A stretch of 64,000 nt of DNA from an uncultured bacterium (GCA_963844965.1 CAWJQC010000004.1:41609-105608), one strand, 5' to 3'. Shown: positions 3,163 to 62,458, counted from the first letter of the stretch. The notes: generated by a model not told the origin, from the letters alone. A program made the numbers and translations.

Positions 3163-3595
3163 CTATAACCCATTCTTGTTCAAAACCTCATTCACGACTC
3201 TATCCGCTTTTCTGTTCTCCTCGCGCGGCACGTGGCGGAATTCCACCATTTTAAAGTCAAATTTCAAATTCCATACACCGACGAACAGTGGCTGCAGGTT
3301 TTCTTCCATGATCTTATACTTGCCGTTCAGTTGTTTCACCACGAGTTCGGAATCCATCCTTATTTCAACATCCGACTCCTTCGCTTTCGCTTTGCCAATG
3401 AGCTGTTTTATTTTTTTAAGCGCGAAAATGACCGCTTCGTATTCGGCCTGATTGTTGGTCTTCTCGCCTAGATATTCGCCATATTCTTTATTATCAATCA
3501 CAACCCCGATAGCGGCCGGACCTGGATTTCCCCTGGAACCGCCGTCGGTATAAACGACGTATCTTTGATTCTTTGAATAATTGACCCTTCTTCAT
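3163..3595 (-). CDS. rnhA: ribonuclease HI; N-terminal region disrupted by a 1-nt frameshift
   Basis: The frame holding YVVYTDGGSRGNPGPAAIGVVIDNKEYGEY...AEYEA (RNase H catalytic core) has no start codon. The ATG at 3593-3595 overlaps the TGA of the upstream gene (ATGA) and reads MKKGQLFKESKI in a different frame. Confidence 0.65.
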
Positions 3596-4545
3596 TTTAG
3601 CCTTTCAACAACTTCCATAGCGACCCTTCCAGCGTCTTCCTTACTTTTGAAGAAAGCACCCGCGGCGCCCTTGTGGCCGCCGCCGCCGTATTTTGCCATA
3701 AGTTCACCAGCATGAATTTTTGCCTCGCGCATTCGCCAGGGATTCGCTGAAAGCCCTACCTCAAAAAGGTTGTCGCTCCTTTGCAGGCGGACGGCATAGA
3801 TGGTCTTCGGATAAAGATAGTATGGCGCGAACCGCAGCTTGCCGCTACCTGCCAATGTCAGGTCTATAAATGTCGCCTTGCCGCGAACTTTTATGTTCTT
3901 CCGGTAAAATCTCAATCCCAATCTTATCTTTTTGCGCGCACCGGCTGCGCATTCCTGAACGCGCGGGTCTTTAGCTATTTCCCTGAGCGACTTCCGGGAA
4001 AGAAGGTCTATGAGCGGCCGGCGCGTGCTGTTATCATTGGCGTTCTTTTCAATGAAGGCGTCAATGCGGAGTGCCGGCTCCTTTACTTCAAGCGTCTGCT
4101 TGGCGGATCCATAACCCGCTCCGTCAATAATGTCCAGCCATTTCGTCAACTCCTTGAAGTGCTTGGGTGGTTTCCAGTCGAAACCGACGCGCAGTGACGC
4201 CTCGGTAAAATGGCACGCCGACTTATACGACGGATCGTAACGGCGGAACTTGGATGGTCTGAACTTTTTCCGCCAGCTTTCTTTCTGAAAAGCGGTCGGA
4301 TGGTGGTCAAACCAAAAAAAAGCCCCTGGGTGGTATTGGAAATCCAAAACGATGGCCGGATTGCGCCTGCCGCGGAAGAGTTTGTGCTTCAAAAAGAATT
4401 TTTCGTCCCGCCACTGCGGTAAAATATCAAAACCGAGAGGAACATAACGCTCAATATCGTCGCCGCGGTCGCGCAAAAATGCAAGCATCACCGCCGCTGA
4501 CGCCCATCCGTCAAAATCGTTGTGAAAATAGACGTCGTAAGTCAT
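3592..4545 (-). CDS. DHH/DHHA1 phosphoesterase, NrnA-like nanoRNase/pAp phosphatase
   Basis: Motifs HNDFDGWASAAV (DHH motif I), WFDHHP, and YGGGGHKGAAG (DHHA1 GGGH motif). Confidence 0.7.
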   Translation of the reverse strand: MTYDVYFHNDFDGWASAAVMLAFLRDRGDDIERYVPLGFDILPQWRDEKFFLKHKLFRGRRNPAIVLDFQYHPGAFFWFDHHPTAFQKESWRKKFRPSKFRRYDPSYKSACHFTEASLRVGFDWKPPKHFKELTKWLDIIDGAGYGSAKQTLEVKEPALRIDAFIEKNANDNSTRRPLIDLLSRKSLREIAKDPRVQECAAGARKKIRLGLRFYRKNIKVRGKATFIDLTLAGSGKLRFAPYYLYPKTIYAVRLQRSDNLFEVGLSANPWRMREAKIHAGELMAKYGGGGHKGAAGAFFKSKEDAGRVAMEVVERLK

Positions 4546-4769
4546 TCTCTATTATGATAACGCCTGCCGCCCCTCCTCGCCAACTATCTGAAGTCATCGG
4601 CGAAAAATTCATAACCGCAGATTAGCACGGGCGTGGAAAGAAAATACCAGAATACCACGTCGTCTATGGGAAAAATATGGCCGAAAACAAGAATTGGAAA
4701 GATATATTTTCCGGGTGACCAGGACCCCGTAATTTAGACACAAAGGTCGAAACAAACTACCATTGTGTC

Positions 4770-5033
4770 ATGAGCAACAAAAAAGGGCATCGGATTGCAA
4801 AGGAAGTGAAGGCGGACATCCTCCGCCGCGTGAAGGAAGAAGGCGTTTCGGTGGCCCAAGCCGCGAAGGACCACGGCTTGCACGAGTCCACCATCTATAA
4901 CTGGCTCGGAGCCGGAGCGGCAGGCGCTCCCTCGTGGAGCGAGTTCTCCCGCCTGCAGAAGCAGAACCGCGAGCTCTTTGAGGTGGTGGGCGAGCTCACC
5001 GTGAAGCTCTCTCAGGCCCAAAAAAAGAGTTGA
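4770..5033 (+). CDS. IS3 family transposase OrfA
   Basis: 87 aa HTH/leucine-zipper protein; ends at the slippery motif CCAAAAAAAG. Confidence 0.8.
   Translation: MSNKKGHRIAKEVKADILRRVKEEGVSVAQAAKDHGLHESTIYNWLGAGAAGAPSWSEFSRLQKQNRELFEVVGELTVKLSQAQKKS
5021..5031 (+). other. programmed -1 ribosomal frameshift slippery site of the IS3 transposase
   Basis: CCAAAAAAAG heptamer (A AAA AAG) exactly at the OrfA/OrfB overlap. Confidence 0.6.
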
Positions 5034-5812
5034 CGGAGAAACGGGACAAGTCGGCCCTGGCCAGGGCCATGGGCGTCTCACGGGCATCGCTCTACTACGT
5101 TCCGAAACAGTACGCGAAGGATTGGGCATTCAAGATCCTGATCGAGGAAGAGCTGCGGCGCCATTCCTCGTACGGCTCGCGGCGCCTGGCGCAAGCCCTC
5201 CACGCGAACCGCAAACGGACCAGGCGTGTGATGAAGCTCTTTGGCATCAAGCCATACCGGAGGCGGGGCAAGAAATATCGTAAATCAAAGGCATCGCGGG
5301 CCTTTCCGAACCTCTTACTTGCCATCATGCCCTCGTACGCGAACCACGTCTGGGCAACCGATTTCACGGAGTTCCTGTATCGCGGCAAGAAAGTGTACGT
5401 GTCCACGATACTCGATCTTTTCACGAGACGATTGATGGGCGTCCATGTGGCGTTGCGGAAAGGATCGCCCCTCACGATACAGACCCTGGCCAACGCGCTT
5501 TTCCACCATCCGCATCCGGTCATCTTCCATTCGGACAACGGCAGCGAGTACAAGGCACGAGCGTTCACCGATACACTGGGGGACTGTGGCATCACGATCT
5601 CGCGGTCGCGGCCCGGTGCCCCATGGGAAAACGGCTACCAGGAATCGTTCTATGACAAGTTCAAGATTGACCTCGGTGATCCCAACCGGTTCGGGACCTT
5701 CGGCGAGCTCGTGGCGGAGATCTACAGCACCTTGTGGCAGTACAACCACACGCGGATCCACTCCGCCCTCAAGATGCCGCCGTCCGTGTTTGCCGAGAAG
5801 ATTGCGGCTTAA
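5030..5812 (+). CDS. IS3 family transposase OrfB (DDE/rve integrase core)
   Basis: WATDFTEF, HSDNGSEY and PWENGYQESF give a D, D, E triad in rve-like spacing. Confidence 0.85.
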   Translation: MTEKRDKSALARAMGVSRASLYYVPKQYAKDWAFKILIEEELRRHSSYGSRRLAQALHANRKRTRRVMKLFGIKPYRRRGKKYRKSKASRAFPNLLLAIMPSYANHVWATDFTEFLYRGKKVYVSTILDLFTRRLMGVHVALRKGSPLTIQTLANALFHHPHPVIFHSDNGSEYKARAFTDTLGDCGITISRSRPGAPWENGYQESFYDKFKIDLGDPNRFGTFGELVAEIYSTLWQYNHTRIHSALKMPPSVFAEKIAA

Positions 5813-5864
5813 CGAAAAAAAACGGCAAAAAGCCGTCGAATCACTGTCTAAAGAAACCTATCCT

Positions 5865-6128
5865 TTACAGGTGTTTATAGCTGCCATCTTCTGGTGCCCA
5901 AGACTCAAACAATTTCTTTAAGTCCTCTATGATTCCCACCTCCCACTCCATAATAACAAGCGCTGCAGTCGTTCCAAAAACGAATATGTGCGCGATTCCG
6001 TCCGAGAGGCCGGATTGCTTGACCACCGCAGCAACCCGATCGGTGATGTTTATAAAATCGTAGTGACCTTTTGTTTTGACGGAAAGGATCATCGCCATAT
6101 TATCTCGAAAGTTGCGGGTGGGGTGCAA
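5865..6128 (-). pseudogene. YjbQ/UPF0047 family gene remnant (N-terminal 87 aa only), next to the IS3 right end
   Basis: MAMILSVKTKGHYDFINITDRV...HIFVFGTTAALVIMEWE...PEDGSYKHL matches the YjbQ N-terminal two-thirds. A stop sits 13 bp from the IS end, and the about 50 aa C-terminus (AHLKASLLG...GTWQ) is missing. Confidence 0.55.
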
Positions 6129-6442
6129 ACGATTCTACCGCAAACTGGTTTTTTTTGCGGTTTTGACATGTCCATGTTTCCCAACTCTATCACTTTAATT
6201 CTATCAGAACAGAGAAAATTATATGCATCTCGGTCTGTCCGATACTAAAACTAGGTGCGGGGAGTAGTGGACGACGTTAGAACCTGTTTGATGGAAAATG
6301 CCAGCAAATTCAGTATCCCGAGTCTTGTGAGTTAGGTTCCCCCACCCTATCACCCACCATATCTACTCCGGTGGTTGGACGACATAAGGGCCTGTAAAAA
6401 AACCGAACATTCTTATCGCGATCAGCTTTGAGAAATTAACTT

Positions 6443-7498
6443 CTAGTTCCCCATCTTCGGCCCGCTTACGTCGCCATTGTTATTATATCCAGACTTTTCC
6501 CACGTGCCTTTGTAATTAATATCATCGGACAACTCAATTTTGGTTATCCATTTTATCCATTTGTATCCCCATTTTTGTTCCGCAACAAGCTGAAACGGGA
6601 AGCCTTTTTCTGCCGGAATGACAACGTTATTCATTTTATAGGCCAAGAGAATATTATTATTTTCAATATAATCCAGGGGCAGTGAGGTGGTATAACCATC
6701 GCTCGCATAAAATATGACAACTTTTGCTTGTGCTTTAATACCGGCCGATTCCAAAAGGTCTTTGACCAAGACCCCTTCCCATAAAATTTTTGCAGTCCAG
6801 CCCTCGACACAATCAAGCTCCACAACCTTAGAATATTTCTGAAAATTTAGAACTTGATCGTAGGTATAACTTTTTGGAGTCTGGACCAAGCCAGAGATTT
6901 CCAATGAGTAATTATCAATGTCTATATATTGAGTTCCTTTAATCGCGTTATCCTGAATATCGGCAATTGATGATAATTTTTCTCCCTGGTACTCCTTAAC
7001 CTGACTATCTGTTAATTGTTTTGTTGCGTAATCAGACGATAATTTAATTCTGATAAAAGAAATGCTTGCGATTCCGGCCAGCACCAAAAAAATTATTAAA
7101 AACCAAATTTTGGTTCTCAAACCTAAAAATTTATTTTCAGGAGTTGCGTTGAGTGTTTTTTCGGAAACTTTAATTCGGCCCAAGACGATATTCATCAATG
7201 CCAAAACTACTATAATAATACCCGACCAATCATGTGCAAAATTTATCCAAAATAACGGCAAAGGCGCATAGCCAATTACATGATACAATTCCAAAAACTT
7301 AAAAACGCCCGTAATAACCAGTATTGGAACAAAAAATATCAAAACCAGTCGAACAATTTTTCTTAATGCAATCACGCTTTTATTATATCGTTTCCATCCG
7401 AAGTCAACAAAAGCGAAGAGCGTCAAAAAACCACCCCGTGTGCGGAGCGGCGGAAATTTACTCCAACGGGTGGACGGTGTTAGAATATAAATCGCCAA
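6443..7498 (-). CDS. molybdopterin-dependent oxidoreductase (MsrP/YedY-like Mo domain) fused to an N-terminal membrane domain; AT-rich
   Basis: C-terminal LDCVEGWTAKILWEGVLVKDLL...GYTTSLPLDY is the sulfite-oxidase-like Mo-pterin fold. The N-terminus has 3-4 TM helices. GC is about 33% against about 54% in the flanks. Confidence 0.55.
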   Translation of the reverse strand: MAIYILTPSTRWSKFPPLRTRGGFLTLFAFVDFGWKRYNKSVIALRKIVRLVLIFFVPILVITGVFKFLELYHVIGYAPLPLFWINFAHDWSGIIIVVLALMNIVLGRIKVSEKTLNATPENKFLGLRTKIWFLIIFLVLAGIASISFIRIKLSSDYATKQLTDSQVKEYQGEKLSSIADIQDNAIKGTQYIDIDNYSLEISGLVQTPKSYTYDQVLNFQKYSKVVELDCVEGWTAKILWEGVLVKDLLESAGIKAQAKVVIFYASDGYTTSLPLDYIENNNILLAYKMNNVVIPAEKGFPFQLVAEQKWGYKWIKWITKIELSDDINYKGTWEKSGYNNNGDVSGPKMGN

Positions 7499-7555
7499 AA
7501 GTTAGAACCTCAAATTGCTTACCGGATAAGCGTTAACCGAGAAAAATTATCGTAG

Positions 7556-7626
7556 CGGGGGCAGTAGGAATCGAACCCACGTTAGCGGTTTTGGAGACCG
7601 CTGTCCTGCCACTGAACGATGCCCCC
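7556..7626 (-). tRNA. tRNA-Trp (anticodon CCA)
   Basis: GGGGGCAUCGUUCAGUGGCAGGACAGCGGUCUCCAAAACCGCUAACGUGGGUUCGAUUCCUACUGCCCCCG folds as a cloverleaf with anticodon loop CUCCAAA. Confidence 0.85.
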
Positions 7627-7628
7627 TT

Positions 7629-7652
7629 GCGCTCCGACCATGGTCGGAGCGC
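7629..7652. other. perfect 24 bp palindrome directly 5' of tRNA-Trp
   Basis: GCGCTCCGACC ATG GTCGGAGCGC; possible rpmG terminator or tRNA processing stem. Confidence 0.45.
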
Positions 7653-7724
7653 AATTTTCAAATCACAATTTCCAATTTTCAAACCATTACTGAATTACCA
7701 CTAATTACAACTGAATTACATCTA

Positions 7725-7907
7725 TTACTTCCCTCCTATCTTAACCTCCTTGTGTGCCGTATGTTTTCGGCACCACTTGCAGAATTTTTTATATTCCAGT
7801 TTCCGCTCAACTTTCTTCTTGTTCTTGGTCGTATAATAATTCCGCCGTTTGCAGACGGAACAACGCAGGGCTATTAAATTCTCGGAATGCTTGGATTTAG
7901 CTGCCAT
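7725..7907 (-). CDS. rpmG: 50S ribosomal protein L33
   Basis: MAAKSKHSENLIALRCSVCKRRNYYTTKNKKKVERKLEYKKFCKWCRKHTAHKEVKI. Confidence 0.8.
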   Translation of the reverse strand: MAAKSKHSENLIALRCSVCKRRNYYTTKNKKKVERKLEYKKFCKWCRKHTAHKEVKIGGK

Positions 7908-8027
7908 GGAATCAGAAAGTAGAAGGTAGAAAATAGAATTTAGAACATAGAACTGAGGGCGCGGAGAGAACAATCCTCAAAATTCCACACAGGAAATCTT
8001 AGCAGAAAACCGGTTTTCGCGCAAATC

Positions 8028-9822
8028 TTAAACGGTCCCTCGGGGTGACGCGCGGAACGCAGCCTCAACATCCAGGTCCTCCCAGCCGGCTTTCTTCAAT
8101 TCGCCGCGAATCACGTCGTCCACAAACGCGGCGGCGCGGGCGGCCCTGATATATTCCACGAGCTCCGGATTCTGGGAACCGGCTTGGGTTGATTTCACTT
8201 CCGCGGCCGGAGAAGCGGCGGTTGCGGCGTCCGCGCTAACTTGCCGCGCGGCTTCAGGGTTCGCCGCTGAAGCCGCTGAATTGTTTTTCTCCGCTTCTTC
8301 CCGCGTCGCCTCATGTTTTATAAGTTCTTTCTCTTCCGTCTCCAGCTTCACTATTTCCTCCTCCTCTTTTTTCATCCGCTTGCGAAGCATGACTACGACA
8401 AACGCCGCTATTATCAGAACCAACACTCCGCCGCCCGCGATAAGCCACGCGGTGAGTCCGACTCCGCTCAGCCGCTCCTTTATGACATCCCATGGCGTAT
8501 CAAGCGACCCGCCCGCGGCGATAAGCGCCGCGCACTGCTCTATATACGGGTCAGCGTATTTGTTTACGGAGAATTTCGCGTCGGAATTCTCGGCTATCTT
8601 GAATTGCTCCGTCGCTTTCTTGCACTGCTTGGCGTGCAGAAGCGCGAGACCCTGTTCCATTGAATCGGTGAAGCCGCTTGTATCGTTTTTCAGCGACTGT
8701 GCGTCAAGCGCGGCTTTCGCCAGTTCAACCGGAACGGCGGATGCGAAATTATCCCCTAAAATGTCGCTGAGCCCCGATTCAAATGTCACCAAACCAATGA
8801 CCTCTCCGTCAGCTCCGAAGAGCGGCCCTCCGCTTGAACCTTCGGAGATCTTCGCGTCCGATTGCAATATTTTGAAATCCTTATTTTGGGAATCTTTGAT
8901 GGCGGTTATCACTCCCTGTGTGAACGTCGGCTCAAGATAATCTTGCGACCCGATACTGGGCCGTACCCGGAAAGCCAAACACGTAAATTTTCTGGCCGAC
9001 AGCGGCCAACGCCGAAGCGCCGAGCTTCATGGCCGCGAGGTTACTTTCGCCAATCTTAAGAATAGCGACGTCCTTGTCGTCAAGGTTGTAGTTATCATTC
9101 ACGCTCAAAACCGTTGCCGGAAACGAATCTTTGATAAGTTCGGTGAGTTTTTGTTTCGTTGATGTCGGATTCAGCACGACGACCTCCCGCAAGATGTCAA
9201 AGCGGCTGTTGGCTTCCAGGGCGGATAAAATTTTCTTTCCATATTCTTCTCCCATGCTTTCCGCATCCAGCGAGTCAATCCCTTTATCTTTATAATACTT
9301 TTCCAAGTCCTGTATTTCATTCGGTTTCAAGGAGAACATTTCTTTGAATATCACCGACGTCATAGCCGCGCCGAGTATCGCCTGCCGCATGGTCTCTTCC
9401 GAAACAACATGGGAGTTTGTGAGGACCAGGCCGGATGGATTCACGACGAAACCGCTGCCCGCGAGATACTGCTCCGTGGAAGTGCCGTTAACGGCGCCTG
9501 ATTTCGGAAACGACACGGCAAACGTTCGGAGGTCAATGCTAAAATCGGGCACCGTTGAGGTTACCAGGAAATGCGTGAGCACCCGAACAATGGACGGCTT
9601 CGTTATGTCCGCCAATTCCTCTTCGCTCATCGCGAGCGGCTGCGGCGTGGGCATGCTCCAAAGATCGGAGAGCGACGCCGTCCCCGATCTCCCACCGCCG
9701 GGCAAACTGCGGAGAGCAACGGCGCCCAAAAACGCCGTGCTCACAAAAAGCGCGACCAAAAACAAAAAGAGCGGTAGCCATATCCGTCCACCTTCCCTAC
9801 CGTTGCCGATAAATGGCATGTA
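8028..9822 (-). CDS. membrane-anchored trypsin-like (S1) serine protease with a C-terminal TM segment and acidic/Ala-rich tail; split by a frameshift near 8950
   Basis: The N-terminal ORF carries the catalytic His (VLTNSHVV) and Asp (DVAILKI). The second frame carries the Ser motif GSSGGPLF. The two ORFs overlap at 8932-8978. Confidence 0.6.
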
Positions 9823-9985: not shown

Positions 9986-9991
9986 AGGCTG

Positions 9992-10064
9992 AGCCGATGG
10001 CCGGATTTGAACCGGCGACCTACTCCTTACCATGGAGTTGCTCTACCAGCTGAGCTACATCGGC
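9992..10064 (-). tRNA. tRNA-Thr (anticodon GGU)
   Basis: GCCGAUGUAGCUCAGCUGGUAGAGCAACUCCAUGGUAAGGAGUAGGUCGCCGGUUCAAAUCCGGCCAUCGGCU; anticodon loop AUGGUAA. Confidence 0.85.
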
Positions 10065-10577: not shown

Positions 10578-10605
10578 TTATCCCGATTTTGCAAAATTTG
10601 CCTTG

Positions 10606-10677
10606 AGCCGGCGGTCGGATTTGAACCGACGACCTGCTGTTTACAAAACAGCTGCTCTGCCGCTGAGCTACGCCGGC
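10606..10677 (-). tRNA. tRNA-Thr (anticodon UGU)
   Basis: GCCGGCGUAGCUCAGCGGCAGAGCAGCUGUUUUGUAAACAGCAGGUCGUCGGUUCAAAUCCGACCGCCGGCU; anticodon loop UUUGUAA. Flanked by ATTTTGCAAAA direct repeats. Confidence 0.85.
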
Positions 10678-26311: not shown

Positions 26312-26392
26312 GATTATAAATAAATTTTCAATTTTTAATTTTCAATTTTAAAATGTTTGGAAATTGTAAAATTGAGAATTATAAAATTGTTT

Positions 26393-30198: not shown

Positions 30199-30274
30199 AA
30201 TGATAAATTTTCAATTTCCAATTTTCCAATTTCCAAACGTTTGGAAATTCTGAACTTGGAATTATTTTCTCCGT

Positions 30275-38618: not shown

Positions 38619-38929
38619 TATTTTTTCCTATTGAGGGAATTCATCCGGATGTTCGTCCTCGTATTTTTCAAGAAGTCCGTTGTACAGATTTATATCCCTT
38701 TCGAGTTTGGAGCAGGATTCAAGCTCCCAGTGCCCGATATCCCCTTGACGGGACGCCGCTGGCTCGCCACTTCCGCAAATTGGCTCTCTAATCGCTTAAC
38801 CAGGGCTTTCAGTTTTTCGTAGTCCTCGTGATTTTGAGGCGGATTTTTCAACCAGCTCCTGTTGTCAAAGTTAGTTTCTTTTTCCTCACCAAGCTAATTT
38901 TGGATTCACTGCGATTTTTTTCACCCATA

Positions 38930-40132
38930 TTATTTCAGTATCTTAGTCACCGCTCCTGCGCCGACCGTCTTGCCGCCTTCGCGGATGGCAAAACGCTGTT
39001 TTTCTTCAAGCGCGACCGGGAAATGAGTTTCACGGTGAGTTTAACGGTGTCGCCCGGCATGACCATTTCCATGCCTGCCGGCAAGGGTCACTTCGCCCGT
39101 AACATCGGTCGTCCTGATATAGAACTGCGGCTTGTAGCCGTTGAAGAACGGCGAGTGGCGGCCGCCTTCCTCTTTTGAAAGCACGTAAACCTCGCGCTCG
39201 AATTCCGTGTGCGGCGTGACGCTGCCCGGCTTCGCGACAACCTGCCCGCGCTCCACGTCTTCTTTCTTCAGGCCGCGGAGCAGAACGCCGACGTTGTCGC
39301 CCGCCATGCCTTCGTCCAAGAGTCTTATTGAACATTTCAATGCCCGTGACGACGGTCTTCTGCCGTCGGCCTGCAGGCCGACGATCTCCACTTCTTCGTT
39401 CACTTTCACCTTGCCGCGCTCCACGCGGCCGGTCACGACCGTGCCGCGTCCTTCAATCGAGAAGATGTCTTCGATCGGCATAAGGAACGGCTTGTCGAAG
39501 TCGCGGACCGGATCGGGAATGAATGTCATCCACCGCTTTGATAAGGTCCAAGATCGGTTTCGCGTCCGGGTCGTCGGCGATTTCGCGGCCAACGCTTTCA
39601 AAGCCGAACCGCGGATGATCGGAGTCGTGTCGCCCGGGAATTCGTATTTCTTCAAAAGCTCGCGGACTTCGGACTCAACGAGATCAATGAGTTCCGGATC
39701 GTCCACCTGATCGCACTTATTAAGAAACACGACGATGGTCGGCACGCCGACCTGGCGGGCAAGCAAAATGTGCTCGCGCGTCTGCGGCATCGGGCCGTCG
39801 GTCGCGGCGACGACCAAAATCGCGCCGTCCATCTGCGCGGCGCCCGTGATCATGTTCTTGATATAGTCGGCGTGTCCCGGCGCGTCAATGTGCGCGTAGT
39901 GGCGCTTCTCGGATTCGTACTCCGAATGGTGCAGGGCGATCGTGATGCCGCGCGCCTTTTCCTCCGGAGCGTTGTCAATTTGGTCCACTCTCTCTTCTTT
40001 CTTCGTCAGACCCTTCAAATGCAAAACGTGCATAATCGCGGCGGTCAGGGTCGTCTTGCCGTGGTCAACGTGGCCGATCGTGCCGATGTTCATGTGCGGC
40101 TTGGCCCGGTAGAATTTTTCTTTTTCAGCCAT
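38930..40132 (-). CDS. tuf: elongation factor Tu; at least four compensating single-base indels (1203 nt = 401 codons overall)
   Basis: [18 protein letters not shown] and NKCD motifs are intact. Out-of-frame islands: [22 protein letters not shown] should be [21 protein letters not shown]; the C-terminus is restored as [20 protein letters not shown]...[29 protein letters not shown] in alternate frames. Confidence 0.8.
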
Positions 40133-41436: not shown

Positions 41437-43541
41437 TTACCGTTTTTTGCCTTCGATAATCAACTGCGCAATGTTCTGCGGCACTGGCTCATAATGGTCA
41501 AATTCCATCGTGAACGCTCCCCTGCCTTGCGTCATGGAACGCAACTCGGTCGCGTAGCCGAACATTTCCGCGAGCGGAACTTTGGCGTCAATCACTTTCA
41601 CGTTGGGCCGGTCGGAAATTTCCTCAATCCTGCCGCGCTTGGAGTTCAAGTTGCCGCTCACCTCGCCCAAAAATTCTATCGGGATGATAACCTGAAGCTT
41701 CATTATCGGCTCCAATATGACCGGCTTCGCGCGCTTCGCCGCTTCCTGCAGGGCGATGGAGCCAGCAATTTTGAAAGCCGCCTCCGACGAGTCAACTTCA
41801 TGGAAAGAGCCGTCATAGAGCGAAACTTCAAGGTCGGTCATCGGGTAGTGGGCAACGACCCCCTTACTCAATGCTTCCACCACACCTTTTTCCACCGCCG
41901 GGATGAATTCGTTCGGAATGATCCCTCCCTGATATCGTCTATGAAAACAAATCCCTTGCCGCGCTCCAAGGACTTCACGCGCAGCCAGACATGTCCGTAT
42001 TGTCCGCGGCCGCCGGATTGCCTGATATATTTGCCTTCCGCCTCCGCTTCGCCCATAATCGTTTCTTTATAGGCAACCTGCGGCCGCCCCACCGAACCCT
42101 CAACACCGAACTCCCGCTTCATCCTGTCAACAATAATTTCCAGGTGCAACTCGCCCATGCCAGAAATAATCGTCTCGCCAGTTTCCAGGTCGCCCGCCAC
42201 GCGGAAAGTCGGGTCTTCTTCCGCCAAGCGGTGCAGGGCAATGCTCATTTTTTCCTGGTCGGCTTTCGTCTTCGGCTCAATGCGAATGCCGATCACCGGC
42301 TCGGGGAATATGATCTTCTCAAGCACTATCGGCGCGTCGGGACTGCAAAGCGTGTCGCCGGTCGTCGTATTCTTCAAACCGACGATCGCCGCGATATCTC
42401 CGGCATGCACTTCCTCCATTTCTTCGCGGTGGTTGGCGTGCATCCGCACCACGCGGCCGACACGTTCCTGCTGGTCCTTCTTGGAATTCAAAACGTACGT
42501 GCCGCGCTTCAAAACGCCGGAATAATTCCGGAAATAGGTTAAAGTGCCGACGTACGGGTCTGTCGCAACCTTGAAAGCCAGCGCCGAGAACGGCTCTTCG
42601 TCCTTGGGGTGCCGCACGATATCGGCGCCGCTCTTCGGGTCAATGCCCTTAACCGGAGGAAGGTCCGTCGGCGCGGGCAAATATTCCACAACCGAGTCAA
42701 GCATAAATTGCACGCCTTTGTTTTTCAGGGCCGAACCGCAAAGCACCGGCACAATTTTGTTGGCAATAACGGCTTTGCGCAAAACGCGGCGCAAATCTTC
42801 AATGTCAAGCTCAGTACCATCCAAATACTTGGTCATCAAGGCATCGTCATTGTCCACAATGCGTTCCACAAGTTCATGCCGCGCCTTCTTCACGTGCACT
42901 TTCATATTTTCCGGCATCGGAATTTCTGTAATCTTTTCGCCATGTTCACCCTCCGAGCCGTACGCCTTTTCGGTTAAGAGGTCTATCATTCCCACGAATT
43001 CACCCTCAAGGCCGATGTTCAACTGCAAAGGCAGTGCGTTCGGCGTGAGCCGTTCTTTGATTGACTGCAAACTTTTTTCAAAGCTCGCACCCAAGCGGTC
43101 AAGTTTGTTAATAAAGCAAATCCGCGGCACGTGGTACTCATCGGCATAGCGCCAGTTCGTTTCCGACTGCGGCTCAACACCTGCGACGCCATCAAAGACG
43201 ACAACCGCGCCGTCCAAAACGCGGAGCGAACGCTTCACCTCCACCGTAAAGTCAATGTGCCCCGGCGTGTCAATCAAATTTATCATATGCTCAAATTTTT
43301 TGTCGCCCTTGCGGTAAGTCGGAATCCAGAACGCCGTCGTTGCGGCGGAAGTAATCGTAATTCCCCTCTCACGTTCCTGCTCCATCCAATCCATCACCGT
43401 GTCGCCCGTGTGCACCTCGCCGATTTTGTGACTGACGCCCGTATAAAAAAGCACCCGTTCGCTCACGGTGGTTTTGCCGGCATCTATATGGGCGATGATG
43501 CCGATGTTACGGACCTTCTCGACAGGATACATTCTAGGCAT
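41437..43541 (-). CDS. fusA: elongation factor G; single-base frameshift near 41880
   Basis: N-terminal ORF has [17 protein letters not shown] and NKLD. C-terminal ORF (41437-41895) holds domains IV-V. The two overlap at 41868-41895. Confidence 0.85.
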
Positions 43542-45240: not shown

Positions 45241-45410
45241 CCTTAGATAATCTCCAATTTACAATACCCAATTTCCAACTAAATTTCCAGATTAACAAAA
45301 TTAGCAGCCAGCCACAGCCGCTACATTAGGAAAGTGTACAGTAAACGGCGGCCAGTGTCAAACCCACCACGCTTACCCACCGCGCCTAAGAGAGATAAAA
45401 AAAAGCCGCT

Positions 45411-60737: not shown

Positions 60738-60956
60738 TTACAACAGAGAAACAAACTGCTCCGGTGCAAGTTCGGCATCACGTAGTATTTTGCGAAGCAG
60801 AGAAACATCCACTGCCTTATAGTTCGGCACCGTTACGGATTTCTTGCCGGGACAGGACAAACGAATATGGCTGCCGCGCTGGCGAACTTCGCGATAACCG
60901 AACTTTGCCAAAGCAGAAATAATCTTGCGGCCGGAGATAACAGGCAGTTTAGACAT
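60738..60956 (-). CDS. hicA: HicA-family toxin (YcfA-like mRNA interferase)
   Basis: GYREVRQRGSHIRLSCPGKKSVTVPNYKAVDVSLLRKILRDAEL. Confidence 0.6.
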   Translation of the reverse strand: MSKLPVISGRKIISALAKFGYREVRQRGSHIRLSCPGKKSVTVPNYKAVDVSLLRKILRDAELAPEQFVSLL

Positions 60957-62203: not shown

Positions 62204-62458
62204 CTACAACTCATAAATCTCATCTCGCTTGCCTATTTTGAGTATATAAATTGCGCCATTTCTAACGTCAAATACCAACCTATAATCGCCCACGCGAAAT
62301 CTGAACTCCCCGCCGCGGTTATCAGCCAAACGCTTGGCAAACCTCAACGGATTATCCTCTGACGCATAAAAGCGCATCTTCTTCGCGATGCGCATTTGAA
62401 CTTCTCTCGGCAGGGATTCCAACCGCTTAGCCGCCCGCTTGGCATAGAAAATCTTCAT
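62204..62458 (-). CDS. RelE/ParE-family type II toxin
   Basis: MKIFYAKRAAKRLESLPREVQMRIAKKM...EFRFRVGDYRLVFDVRNGAIYILKIGKRDEIY. Confidence 0.7.
   Translation of the reverse strand: MKIFYAKRAAKRLESLPREVQMRIAKKMRFYASEDNPLRFAKRLADNRGGEFRFRVGDYRLVFDVRNGAIYILKIGKRDEIYEL

What the first reader, a model, noticed from the sequence alone, without database searches (positions are those of the whole stretch)
4720..7560. Islet at the 3' side of tRNA-Trp: AT-rich Mo-oxidoreductase gene, truncated yjbQ and an IS3 element
On the minus strand, downstream of tRNA-Trp, lie a 33% GC gene (flanks are about 54%). It encodes a YedY/MsrP-type molybdopterin domain fused to a membrane domain. Next is a YjbQ family gene that stops after 87 aa, 13 bp from the right inverted repeat of an intact IS3-family element with a functional A7G frameshift site. 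The compositional jump, the truncated gene at an IS end, and the tRNA anchor point to horizontal acquisition followed by IS-mediated deletion. A molybdoenzyme is unexpected in a genome with this reduced a ribosomal-gene layout, because it needs the Moco biosynthesis genes.
Basis: partly seen in the sequence, partly recalled or inferred. Interest (0 to 1): 0.5.

Follow-up and report, generated by a model that had tools for sequence, protein, structure and literature searches.

The report
Foreign gene and IS beside tRNA-Trp
Next to a tRNA-Trp gene in a small Patescibacteria-type genome lie a borrowed AT-rich membrane oxidoreductase gene and a native yjbQ gene cut short by a jumping-gene element, which is an ordinary patch of genome flux and not a new kind of system.

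Summary
All four described features are present; several numbers need correcting. The oxidoreductase gene (most likely 6443-7375, minus strand, 310 aa) has 36.7% GC against 50% for the window. It is the strongest compositional outlier among 47 genes. It is 82% identical in DNA to genes in other, lower-GC Patescibacteria contigs, and that similarity covers only the gene itself. Two contigs with an identical tRNA-Trp carry different cargo at this site. Lateral acquisition is therefore well supported. No integrase gene and no repeat of the tRNA end is present, so tRNA-targeted integration is not shown. The IS3-family element spans 4716-5869 and looks intact. It cuts yjbQ after codon 76 and supplies the stop codon. 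The missing 59 codons are nowhere in the 64 kb, so an IS-associated deletion or rearrangement is likely. The IS is a mosaic compared with sibling copies, which points to recombination between IS copies, but this is not proven. The claim that a molybdoenzyme is unexpected here does not hold as a peculiarity of this genome: more than 7,000 homologues exist, and every one that carries a source organism name is from Patescibacteria-type bacteria. Whether this genome makes molybdenum cofactor could not be tested. Interest is low to moderate.

The parts
7555..7626 (-). tRNA-Trp (anticodon cca). It marks the edge of the conserved backbone: dnaE, tRNA-Thr(tgt), tRNA-Thr(ggt), rpmG, tRNA-Trp.
   Evidence: ARAGORN; Rfam tRNA model, 61.3 bits. 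An identical 70-nt match was found in metagenome contigs L021 and L022. L021 has the same gene order.
7421..7451 (-). Terminator-like hairpin with a T run, downstream of tRNA-Trp and upstream of the likely start of the oxidoreductase gene.
   Evidence: Consensus scan: 9-pair stem with 6 G-C pairs, then TTTTT. This is a pattern match only. It lies inside the 5' extension of the longest ORF.
6434..7410 (-). Segment that is 82% identical in DNA to oxidoreductase genes of other Patescibacteria contigs. This is the probable extent of the laterally acquired DNA: the gene, about 35 nt upstream and 9 nt downstream.
   Evidence: blastn of window 5800-7700 against L001-L005; GC values; tetranucleotide outlier.
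6443..7375 (-). Coding sequence (GTG start, 310 aa) of a membrane-anchored SUOX-fold (MsrP/YedY-like) molybdopterin-domain protein. It has three N-terminal membrane helices and a C-terminal Oxidored_molyb domain. The longest possible ORF reaches 7498.
   Evidence: PF00174, E 1.7e-35; homologue lengths 294-325 aa; alignment A1 with invariant Cys189 and His48; AlphaFold2 model, mean pLDDT 79; fold matches to SorA and YedY; dN/dS 0.11-0.15.
5870..6098 (-). 5' fragment of yjbQ (UPF0047). 76 native codons end in ...YKH, and the next codon is cut after its first base.
   Evidence: PF01894 positions 1-61 of 117; TIGR00149 positions 3-75 of 132; 62% identity to the full-length 135-aa P0122 over residues 1-76; native-like GC3.
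4716..5869 (+). IS3-family insertion sequence, 1154 bp. Imperfect 25-nt terminal repeats lie at 4716-4740 and 5845-5869. orfA is 4770-5033, the slippery A AAA AAG is 5021-5027, and orfB is 5030-5812 in the -1 frame with a DD(35)E triad. It supplies the TAA stop (5865-5867) of the yjbQ fragment.
   Evidence: Pfam and NCBIfam hits; ends fixed by alignment to related copies L012-L016, L020 and L023; repeats match at 15 of 25 positions; single copy in the window; GC 57.5%.
5069..5272 (+). The part of orfB (first 68 residues of the annotated protein P0246) that is only 69% identical to sibling IS copies. Everything from 5273 to the stop is identical to them at protein level. This is the mosaic breakpoint.
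   Evidence: Cluster members P0243, P0245, P0124 and P0244; pairwise alignment; sliding-window DNA identity to sub-lineages.
4546..4715 (.). Left flank of the IS, up to the start of the DHH-family gene (3592-4545, minus strand). It holds no trace of the yjbQ 3' part.
   Evidence: tblastn of full-length YjbQ and of its C-terminal 61 residues against the whole window gave no hit in this flank; the best hit anywhere had E = 1.1. An independent Logan contig, L006, confirms this junction.

Best explanation
The stretch downstream of tRNA-Trp is a patchwork made by two separate, ordinary events in a Patescibacteria (CPR)-type genome.

(1) A single gene of about 980 bp was acquired laterally from a lower-GC Patescibacterium. 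It landed just after the tRNA-Trp terminator, at a position where content varies between related genomes. The gene encodes a three-helix membrane anchor fused to a MsrP/YedY-like molybdopterin (SUOX-fold) domain that is predicted to face outward. This family is very common in Patescibacteria and is under purifying selection. By analogy with MsrPQ and the fused heme-MoCo proteins, it most likely reduces oxidised substrates at the cell surface (inferred).

(2) A 1154-bp IS3-family element interrupted the native yjbQ gene after codon 76. The rest of yjbQ, and an unknown amount of DNA, was then lost or moved. The most likely route is recombination between two diverged IS copies, or an IS-mediated adjacent deletion.

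Shown: the compositional outlier, the gene-limited homology, the different cargo in contigs sharing the tRNA-Trp, the exact IS boundaries, the absence of the yjbQ 3' part, and the mosaic IS.
Inferred: the direction and mode of transfer, the deletion mechanism, and the enzyme's substrate and cofactor.
For: Composition:
- GC 36.7% against 50.1% for the window; GC z = -4.2 and GC3 z = -4.1; top tetranucleotide outlier.

Homology:
- 83% and 81% protein identity and 82% DNA identity to genes in contigs of 37.6% and 44.6% GC, covering only 6434-7410, with unrelated neighbours there.

The site in related contigs:
- L021 shares the order dnaE, tRNA-Thr, tRNA-Thr, rpmG, tRNA-Trp and an identical tRNA-Trp. 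Downstream it carries DUF4238, AbiU2 and a large serine recombinase. L022 carries a 1632-aa ORF there.

The IS:
- IS3 model above cut-off, A AAA AAG motif, -1 frame, TG...CA ends.
- Sibling copies in the protein database are 100% identical to OrfB from residue 69 onward but only 69% identical before it.
- The left repeat is of the 'GGACCCC' type seen in L016 and L020. The right repeat is of the 'GGATAGG' type seen in L013 and L023.

yjbQ:
- It breaks right after ...YKH compared with the full-length P0122. No C-terminal part is present anywhere in the window.

Independent contigs:
- Contigs from sample ERR10755942 reproduce the tRNA-to-oxidoreductase junction and the DHH-to-IS junction.

The protein:
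- PF00174 hit; invariant Cys189 aligns with the cysteine of SoxC's 'eCAAnggmEW' motif, which I take from general knowledge of sulfite-oxidase-family enzymes to be the molybdenum ligand; fold matches to YedY at rmsd 2.0-2.3 A.
- DUF4405-type membrane domains, annotated in many homologues, have been shown to bind heme b (PMC11334425).
Against: - No close relative of this genome was available. The best relative shares 81% identity in DnaE (first 146 residues), and DHH homologues reach only 50%. An older acquisition shared by a whole clade therefore cannot be excluded.
- dS against the nearest homologues is 0.65-0.76, so no donor is identified and the transfer cannot be dated.
- A measure of synonymous codon choice did not mark the gene as an outlier (z = -0.6).
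- The missing target-site duplication is not informative, because six related IS copies also lack one.
- The mosaic could come from gene conversion between IS copies without any deletion. The DNA of the sibling copies could not be retrieved, and it is only inferred that they belong to the same genome.
- The assembly carries indel errors in essential genes. The IS-to-yjbQ junction has no independent confirmation.
Confidence: 0.7

Rival explanations
1. A tRNA-targeted integrative island, the stronger form of the first reader's idea. A site-specific recombinase inserted a block of foreign DNA into the 3' end of tRNA-Trp, and the IS later removed the recombinase gene and the far attachment site.
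For: The foreign gene begins about 180 bp past the tRNA 3' end. In L021, an island carrying a large serine recombinase and abortive-infection-type genes lies directly downstream of the identical tRNA-Trp.
Against: The window has no integrase and no direct repeat of the tRNA 3' end. The best match was 13 nt, inverted, E = 0.42. Foreign homology is limited to a single gene, and native-composition yjbQ follows it. L021 also shows no repeat of the tRNA end in the part held here.
Confidence: 0.12
2. Simple IS insertion into yjbQ with nothing lost. On this view the 3' half lies beyond the left IS end but is unrecognisable because of divergence or assembly indel errors.
For: The left flank is 170 bp (4546-4715), and the missing part is 59 codons (177 nt), so the sizes nearly match. 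The assembly has frameshift errors elsewhere.
Against: None of the three reading frames of the flank resembles the YjbQ C-terminus. tblastn at E up to 50 gives no hit in that flank. The independent contig L006 matches this stretch at 99.9%, with one gap in 1204 columns, so the flank is not an assembly artefact.
Confidence: 0.07
3. Assembly artefact. The contig is a chimera joined at the IS, which is a repeat, so the adjacency of yjbQ, the IS and the DHH gene is not real.
For: Apparent sibling IS copies exist on several contigs. The short-contig assembly of sample ERR10755942 breaks 36 nt inside the IS. The window has indel errors typical of uncorrected long reads in tuf, fusA and a protease gene.
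Against: The left junction and the tRNA-to-oxidoreductase junction are reproduced independently. A misjoin would still leave yjbQ truncated at an IS end. Composition on both sides of the IS is native-like.
Confidence: 0.08
4. The oxidoreductase gene is vertically inherited, and its low GC reflects gene-specific constraints, not transfer.
For: The family is near-universal in many Patescibacteria lineages, and the gene is under purifying selection. The synonymous-codon likelihood is not an outlier.
Against: GC3 is 0.38 against 0.50-0.75 in all 43 other genes. DNA identity to genes in lower-GC contigs is 82%, higher than the 73% seen for dnaE with the closest syntenic relative. Both contigs that share the tRNA-Trp lack the gene at this site.
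Confidence: 0.05

Closest known systems
IS3-family insertion sequences (for example IS911 and IS3, which use A AAA AAG programmed -1 frameshifting)
   Same: It has two overlapping reading frames in the 0 and -1 phases. The slippery heptamer A AAA AAG sits at the overlap. The transposase has an rve-type DD(35)E triad and scores above the NCBIfam IS3 cut-off. The terminal inverted repeats run TG...CA.
   Different: At 1154 bp it is shorter than most IS3 members (general knowledge). There is no target-site duplication here or in six related copies. The two end repeats match at only 15 of 25 positions and belong to different sub-lineage types. Its relatives sit in small Patescibacteria-like genomes, for example at least three copies in one 805-kb contig.
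MsrP/MsrQ (YedY/YedZ), the periplasmic methionine sulfoxide reductase with its heme b membrane partner
   Same: The domain has the SUOX fold, and YedY is among the best structural matches (rmsd 2.0-2.3 A over 177 columns). The conserved CVEGW cysteine is present. A membrane domain precedes an outward-facing catalytic domain. Many homologues carry DUF4405, a heme b cytochrome structurally similar to MsrQ (PMC11334425).
   Different: It is a single polypeptide with only three membrane helices. There is no twin-arginine signal. The score of 66.6 bits is far below the MsrP equivalog cut-off of 207. In this clade the second conserved histidine of the membrane domain is replaced (N in the window protein), and Pfam finds no DUF4405 in the window protein.
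Sco3746-type fused heme-MoCo membrane proteins, inserted by Sec and Tat together (Tooke et al. 2017, PMC5449189)
   Same: A polytopic membrane domain with conserved histidine is fused to a C-terminal MoCo-binding domain that is predicted to lie outside the membrane.
   Different: Sco3746 homologues have five membrane helices and a conserved twin-arginine motif before the last one (PMC5449189). This family has three helices. An RR pair occurs in the corresponding loop in only 5 of 40 aligned members, and the window protein has LRTK there.
YjbQ/UPF0047 (TIGR00149, 'secondary thiamine-phosphate synthase enzyme')
   Same: The N-terminal 76 residues align with the family, and with the full-length homologue P0122 at 62% identity.
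   Different: The C-terminal 59 residues, about 45% of the protein, are missing, and the score falls below the family cut-off (50.9 against 67.75 bits). It is presumably inactive.

Membership tests
IS3 family insertion sequence | Transposase matches the family model above the curated threshold (rve-type DDE domain) | tested here: met
   NF033516 scores 192.6 bits against a cut-off of 160 for orfB. PF00665 rve has E 9e-21. The D, D and E residues were read from the translation (WATDFTEF, HSDNGSEY, YQESFY).
IS3 family insertion sequence | orfA and orfB overlap in the 0 and -1 frames, with an A6G/A7G-type slippery site | tested here: met
   orfA is 4770-5033 and orfB is 5030-5812 in the -1 phase. 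A AAA AAG lies at 5021-5027 in the orfA frame. Whether frameshifting actually occurs was not tested.
IS3 family insertion sequence | Terminal inverted repeats ending 5'-TG...CA-3' | tested here: met
   4716-4740 and 5845-5869 match at 15 of 25 positions, with TG and CA at the tips. The boundaries coincide with those of related copies in other contigs.
IS3 family insertion sequence | Short (3-5 bp) target-site duplication | tested here: not met
   The flanks are ...CCGGG and GGTGT.... Six related copies (L012-L016, L020) also show none, so this may be a property of the lineage or a result of recombination between copies.
MsrP (YedY) methionine sulfoxide reductase catalytic subunit | Oxidored_molyb (SUOX-fold) domain with the molybdenum-ligand cysteine | tested here: met
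   PF00174 has E 1.7e-35. Cys189 is invariant in 40 homologues and aligns with the cysteine of SoxC's 'eCAAnggmEW' motif; that this cysteine is the molybdenum ligand is taken from general knowledge, not tested. The fold matches YedY.
MsrP (YedY) methionine sulfoxide reductase catalytic subunit | Score above the equivalog threshold | tested here: not met
   NF003767 scores 66.6 bits against a cut-off of 207. The SoxC, SorA and SorT models are also far below their cut-offs.
MsrP (YedY) methionine sulfoxide reductase catalytic subunit | Twin-arginine (Tat) export signal | tested here: not met
   There is no RR at the N-terminus or before the third helix of the window protein. RR is present in that loop in only 5 of 40 homologues.
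MsrP (YedY) methionine sulfoxide reductase catalytic subunit | The host makes or obtains molybdenum cofactor | not testable with these tools
   Only 64 kb of the genome is available. The source contig could not be retrieved, and the single scan of genome collections had been used. No Moco riboswitch lies upstream.
Sco3746-type Sec/Tat dual-inserted heme-MoCo proteins | Five membrane helices with a conserved twin-arginine motif before the last one | tested here: not met
   The model has three helices (residues 2-26, 41-67 and 88-122). No conserved RR is present. The family definition is taken from PMC5449189.
DUF4405 (PF14358) heme b membrane cytochrome | Pfam match and conserved heme-ligand histidines | tested here: inconclusive
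   Many homologues carry PF14358, but the window protein and its closest relatives do not. His48 is invariant. The second histidine of the consensus is N in the window protein.
YjbQ / UPF0047 | Full-length domain of about 117-132 residues | tested here: not met
   Only model positions 1-61 of 117 (Pfam) and 3-75 of 132 (TIGR00149, 50.9 bits against a cut-off of 67.75) are present. The rest is absent from the window.
tRNA-anchored genomic island | Integrase or recombinase gene, plus a direct repeat of the tRNA 3' end at the far border | tested here: not met
   No such gene lies in 4500-7554. No repeat of the tRNA end is present.
tRNA-anchored genomic island | Deviant composition, and variable content at the same tRNA in relatives | tested here: met
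   GC and GC3 z-scores are about -4. L021 and L022 carry other genes after the identical tRNA-Trp.

The most novel reading that the evidence does not exclude
The gene belongs to a very large family found mainly in Patescibacteria: a three-helix membrane anchor fused to a SUOX-fold domain. Charge distribution predicts that the domain faces outward, yet the family has no twin-arginine export signal. These organisms are generally described as lacking cofactor biosynthesis (general knowledge, not tested here). If they really lack Moco and heme synthesis and Tat export, the family cannot mature like any known molybdoenzyme. It would then either load a cofactor scavenged from a host outside the cell, or bind another pterin, as the SUOX-fold PruR proteins do (PruR appears among the fold matches). 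The repeated lateral spread of the gene between Patescibacteria of different GC content would fit a portable surface function that depends on the host.
Probability: 0.15. Interest if true: 0.6.

Novelty: new member of a known kind. Interest (0 to 1): 0.25.

Why it matters
For this locus the result is mainly a clean-up. It shows an ordinary lateral gene gain, and an ordinary IS3 element that has destroyed a small gene, in a reduced genome.

Three points have some wider use.
- It documents an IS3 lineage that lives and recombines in Patescibacteria genomes. Several apparent sibling copies exist, and a related genome has at least three copies.
- It shows that the position after tRNA-Trp is variable in this lineage. 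In one relative it holds a defence-type island with a serine recombinase.
- It draws attention to a very large, unstudied family of membrane-anchored molybdopterin-domain proteins in organisms thought unable to make the cofactor. This is a question about the family, not about this window.

Tried and rejected
- **Close relatives through the neighbouring DHH-family protein.** The genome collection gave only 50%-identical hits, with no shared neighbours and no tRNA. They were of no use for synteny.
- **Retrieving the source contig (216,488 bp) and the sibling IS copies.** Look-ups of P0121, P0124, P0243 and P0245 found nothing on record. Neither the rest of the genome (Moco genes, the other half of yjbQ) nor the DNA of the sibling IS copies could be examined.
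- **IS DNA against the plasmid collection.** No match.
- **Target-site duplication as a test for deletion.** Rejected, because related IS copies also lack one.
- **A simple two-part chimera model of the IS at DNA level.** Only the 5130-5270 segment clearly switches sub-lineage, so the mosaic is patchy.
- **Repeat of the tRNA 3' end as an attachment site.** None in the window and none in L021.
- **Moco riboswitch or other RNA upstream of the gene.** None.
- **Stop codon and extra base in the oxidoreductase gene on Logan contig L007.** I considered these as evidence of pseudogenisation. I rejected this as unreliable, because the changes sit at a GATC motif and in a homopolymer, which is typical of read errors.
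- **Literature on Patescibacteria and molybdopterin, Moco or sulfite oxidase.** The searches returned nothing that addresses this family.


Full report
**What is in the sequence**

The window has 50.1% GC. It carries a typical bacterial ribosomal-protein and translation-factor region together with tRNA genes. On the minus strand the order is:
- dnaE side, then tRNA-Thr(tgt) at 10605-10677 and tRNA-Thr(ggt) at 9991-10064;
- a trypsin-like protease in two ORFs;
- rpmG at 7725-7973;
- tRNA-Trp at 7555-7626;
- an ORF at 6443-7498 with an Oxidored_molyb domain (PF00174, E 1.7e-35);
- a UPF0047/YjbQ fragment at 5865-6128, covering Pfam positions 1-61 of 117;
- an IS with orfA (4770-5033) and orfB (5030-5812) on the plus strand;
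- a DHH-family gene at 3592-4545, an RNase H-like gene, and a PHO4 phosphate transporter.

**Corrections to the description**

The oxidoreductase gene has 36.7% GC for the likely coding sequence and 37.8% for the longest ORF. The surrounding genes average 51.4%, not 54%.

Homologues are 294-325 aa and cover 82-89% of the 351-aa ORF. A GTG at 7375 gives 310 aa and aligns with their N-termini. A terminator-like hairpin at 7451-7430 lies inside the longer ORF, between the tRNA and this start. I therefore take 6443-7375 as the gene.

The YjbQ fragment is 77 aa from its ATG. That protein is in the database as P0121, from a 216,488-bp NCBI/ENA contig.

**Is the oxidoreductase gene foreign?**

Composition says yes. 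Against 43 other genes of the window, its GC has z = -4.2 and its GC3 (0.38) has z = -4.1, the lowest of all. The 1-kb stretch 6501-7500 has the largest tetranucleotide distance from the window average (z = 4.1). A likelihood measure of synonymous codon choice did not separate it (z = -0.6). I attribute this to the rather flat codon usage of the background.

Homology agrees. The closest proteins are P0001 (83% identity) and P0002 (81%). They lie in contigs of 37.6% and 44.6% GC, with unrelated neighbours and no tRNA nearby. DNA identity to them is 82% and is confined to window 7410-6434. That span is the gene, about 35 nt upstream and 9 nt downstream. dN/dS is 0.11-0.15, so the gene is under purifying selection. 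dS is 0.65-0.76, so no donor is identified and the transfer cannot be dated.

**Do relatives carry the gene at this site?**

Searching with the DHH protein found only 50%-identical genes without shared neighbours. An exact search for the tRNA-Trp sequence in metagenome contigs was more useful and found two contigs.

- L021 has DnaE at 81% identity (first 146 residues) and L33 at 72%. It has the same order: tRNA-Thr(tgt), tRNA-Thr(ggt), rpmG, tRNA-Trp. Downstream of its tRNA-Trp lie a DUF4238 gene, two unknown genes, a HEPN/AbiU2 gene and a large serine recombinase.
- L022 has a 1632-aa ORF with no Pfam match downstream of the tRNA.

Similarity between the window and L021 stops about 17 nt past the tRNA. 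The site is therefore variable in this lineage, and the oxidoreductase gene is not a conserved resident. These relatives are not close: L021 has 42.8% GC. An acquisition shared by a narrower clade cannot be excluded.

**Is the tRNA an integration anchor?**

The window has no integrase and no repeat of the tRNA 3' end. The best match was 13 nt, inverted, E = 0.42. The foreign segment is a single gene. The next gene, yjbQ, has native composition (GC3 z = -0.7). I conclude that the tRNA marks a variable spot, and that site-specific integration is not shown here.

**The insertion sequence**

Alignment with related copies from other contigs fixes the ends at 4716 (TG) and 5869 (CA), a length of 1154 bp. 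The related copies are L012-L015 (77% OrfB identity, at least three copies in one 804,691-bp contig), L016-L019, L020 and L023.

- OrfB exceeds the NCBIfam IS3 threshold (192.6 against 160 bits) and has the DD(35)E residues.
- The heptamer A AAA AAG lies at 5021-5027 in the orfA frame, and orfB is in the -1 frame.
- The element is a single copy within the window.
- It has 57.5% GC and GC3 of 0.76-0.78, so it deviates in the opposite direction from the oxidoreductase gene.

The IS looks intact.

**The yjbQ truncation**

Compared with the full-length homologue P0122 (135 aa, 62% identity), the window gene runs to ...YKH. It is cut after the first base of the next codon, exactly at the IS end, and the TAA stop at 5865-5867 is IS sequence.

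The 170 bp between the other IS end and the DHH gene do not encode the missing 59 residues in any frame. A permissive tblastn of the whole window finds nothing (best E = 1.1). The 3' part has therefore been deleted or moved.

The flanks (GGG and GGT) are not a duplication. Six related copies also lack one, so I give this no weight.

**A clue to the mechanism**

The 90%-identity protein cluster that holds the window's OrfB (P0246, on the 216,488-bp contig) also holds four siblings. They are on NCBI/ENA contigs of 331,718, 126,036 and 34,664 bp, and one of them occurs on three contigs.

The three full-length siblings were compared with the window's OrfB. P0243 was aligned formally: it is identical from residue 69 to the end (179 residues) but only 69% identical over the first 68 residues. 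P0245 and P0124 show the same pattern apart from a few scattered differences. P0244 is a 125-aa fragment that lacks the divergent part. The breakpoint is near 5272.

The two end repeats also differ in type:
- the left repeat carries GGACCCC, as both ends do in L016 and L020;
- the right repeat carries GGATAGG, as in L013 and L023.

Sliding-window DNA identity shows that 5130-5270 is much closer to the L016 type (0.80-0.88) than to the L023 and L013 types (about 0.60). Elsewhere the three are similar.

The window copy is therefore a mosaic of IS sub-lineages. Recombination between two diverged copies in direct orientation would leave exactly one hybrid IS, with unrelated flanks, and would delete what lay between them. 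Gene conversion between copies would give the same mosaic without a deletion. A classical IS-mediated adjacent deletion would explain the loss without the mosaic. The DNA of the siblings could not be retrieved, and it is only an inference that they come from the same genome.

**Independent support and caveats about the assembly**

Two short contigs from sample ERR10755942 reproduce window 3548-4751 (DHH gene, flank and 36 nt of the IS) and 6548-7582 (oxidoreductase gene into tRNA-Trp) at 99.7-99.9% identity. The IS-to-yjbQ junction has no such support.

The window itself has frame breaks in tuf, fusA and the protease gene. This is typical of uncorrected long-read assemblies. For the same reason I do not read the stop codon and extra base in L007 as pseudogenisation.

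**What the protein is**

The AlphaFold2 model (mean pLDDT 79) has three long helices (2-26, 41-67 and 88-122) followed by a beta-rich domain. The best structural matches are sulfite dehydrogenase SorA and E. coli YedY/MsrP (rmsd 2.0-2.3 A over 177 columns). Small PruR pterin-binding proteins rank lower.

In an alignment of 40 homologues, 41 columns are invariant, including Cys189 in CVEGW and His48 in HDW. In a profile search, Cys189 aligns with the cysteine of SoxC's 'eCAAnggmEW' motif, which I take from general knowledge of sulfite-oxidase-family enzymes to be the molybdenum ligand. Scores against the MsrP, SoxC, SorA and SorT equivalog models are far below their thresholds. The protein therefore belongs to the SUOX superfamily but to none of these named families.

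Many homologues carry DUF4405 in the membrane part. That domain has been shown to bind heme b and resembles MsrQ (PMC11334425). The window's clade lacks the Pfam hit and has lost the second conserved histidine.

The distribution of positive charges places the catalytic domain outside the membrane (read from the sequence). Fused heme-MoCo proteins of the Sco3746 type are known, but they have five helices and a twin-arginine motif that is required for Tat export (PMC5449189). This family has three helices and no conserved RR.

By analogy, the most likely role is reduction of oxidised substrates at the cell surface, with electrons coming from the membrane. This is inferred. The rubrerythrin, peroxiredoxin and ferredoxin-thioredoxin-reductase genes near the P0002 homologue are a weak hint at oxidative-stress repair.

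**The 'unexpected molybdoenzyme' argument**

The search returned 7,288 homologues at E <= 1e-5 among 8,000 scored candidates. Among the best 120, every hit that carries a source organism name is from Parcubacteria, Patescibacteria, Nealsonbacteria, Falkowbacteria or Pacebacteria; most hits are unnamed or carry only a functional label. The gene is therefore a standard item of Patescibacteria gene content and not an oddity of this genome.

Whether these organisms make Moco could not be tested with these tools. Literature searches found nothing on the point. The cofactor question is real, but it concerns the family as a whole. I record it as the most novel reading and give it a low probability.

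**Verdict**

- Lateral gain of the oxidoreductase gene is well supported.
- IS-associated loss of the yjbQ 3' part is well supported, with the mechanism left open.
- The tRNA acting as an integration anchor is not supported.
- The molybdoenzyme surprise is not supported.

The locus is a new example of known kinds of events, and its interest is low to moderate.

Noticed in passing
window 38900-39100 (tuf 3' end), 41840-41920 (fusA), 8900-9000 (trypsin-like protease): Essential genes show frame breaks. The last 60 or so codons of tuf switch frame at least twice. fusA is split into ORFs of 557 and 152 aa, and the protease into ORFs of 324 and 316 aa. This looks like indel errors of an uncorrected long-read assembly and not real pseudogenes.
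   Followed up: partly
L021 2600-6800 (metagenome contig Ga0209515_10003901): In a relative with an identical tRNA-Trp and the same tRNA-Thr/rpmG order, the DNA just downstream of tRNA-Trp carries DUF4238, two unknown genes, a HEPN/AbiU2 abortive-infection-type gene and a large serine recombinase. This is probably a mobile defence island at the same site.
   Followed up: partly
window 7652-7690, 30206-30245, 26323-26360, 45250-45285 (minus strand): Short tandem runs of an 8-9-nt unit (GGAAATTG / GAAAATTG) occur in intergenic spaces of the ribosomal-protein region, in two cases just upstream of a start codon. Their function is unknown.
   Followed up: partly
window 7627-7654: A perfect 28-nt palindrome (TTGCGCTCCGACCATGGTCGGAGCGCAA) lies directly between rpmG and tRNA-Trp. 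A similar GC-rich hairpin sits at the same place in L021. It may be a terminator or a processing signal.
   Followed up: no
L007 (Logan contig, sample ERR10755942), corresponding to window about 6840 and 6600: The independent contig differs from the window by GATC to GAAT, which creates a TAA stop in the oxidoreductase gene, and by one extra A in a homopolymer. These are probably read errors at a methylation motif and a homopolymer, but a disrupted allele in the population cannot be excluded.
   Followed up: partly
L013, L014, L015 (ENA contig_38233, 804,691 bp): A related IS3 element (77% OrfB identity) is present in at least three identical copies in one small Patescibacteria-like genome, two of them about 5 kb apart in inverted orientation. 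None of the copies has a target-site duplication.
   Followed up: partly
L016 2119-2688 and L023 1111-3511: Other members of this IS lineage also sit beside damaged or mobile genes. One lies directly after a 189-aa tRNA-synthetase-class-II fragment (L016). Another lies two genes from a large serine recombinase (L023).
   Followed up: no
window 60738-60956 and 62204-62458: Small ORFs that look like toxin-antitoxin components by eye: one HicA-like (…GSHIRL…) and one RelE/ParE-like. They were not checked against any library.
   Followed up: no
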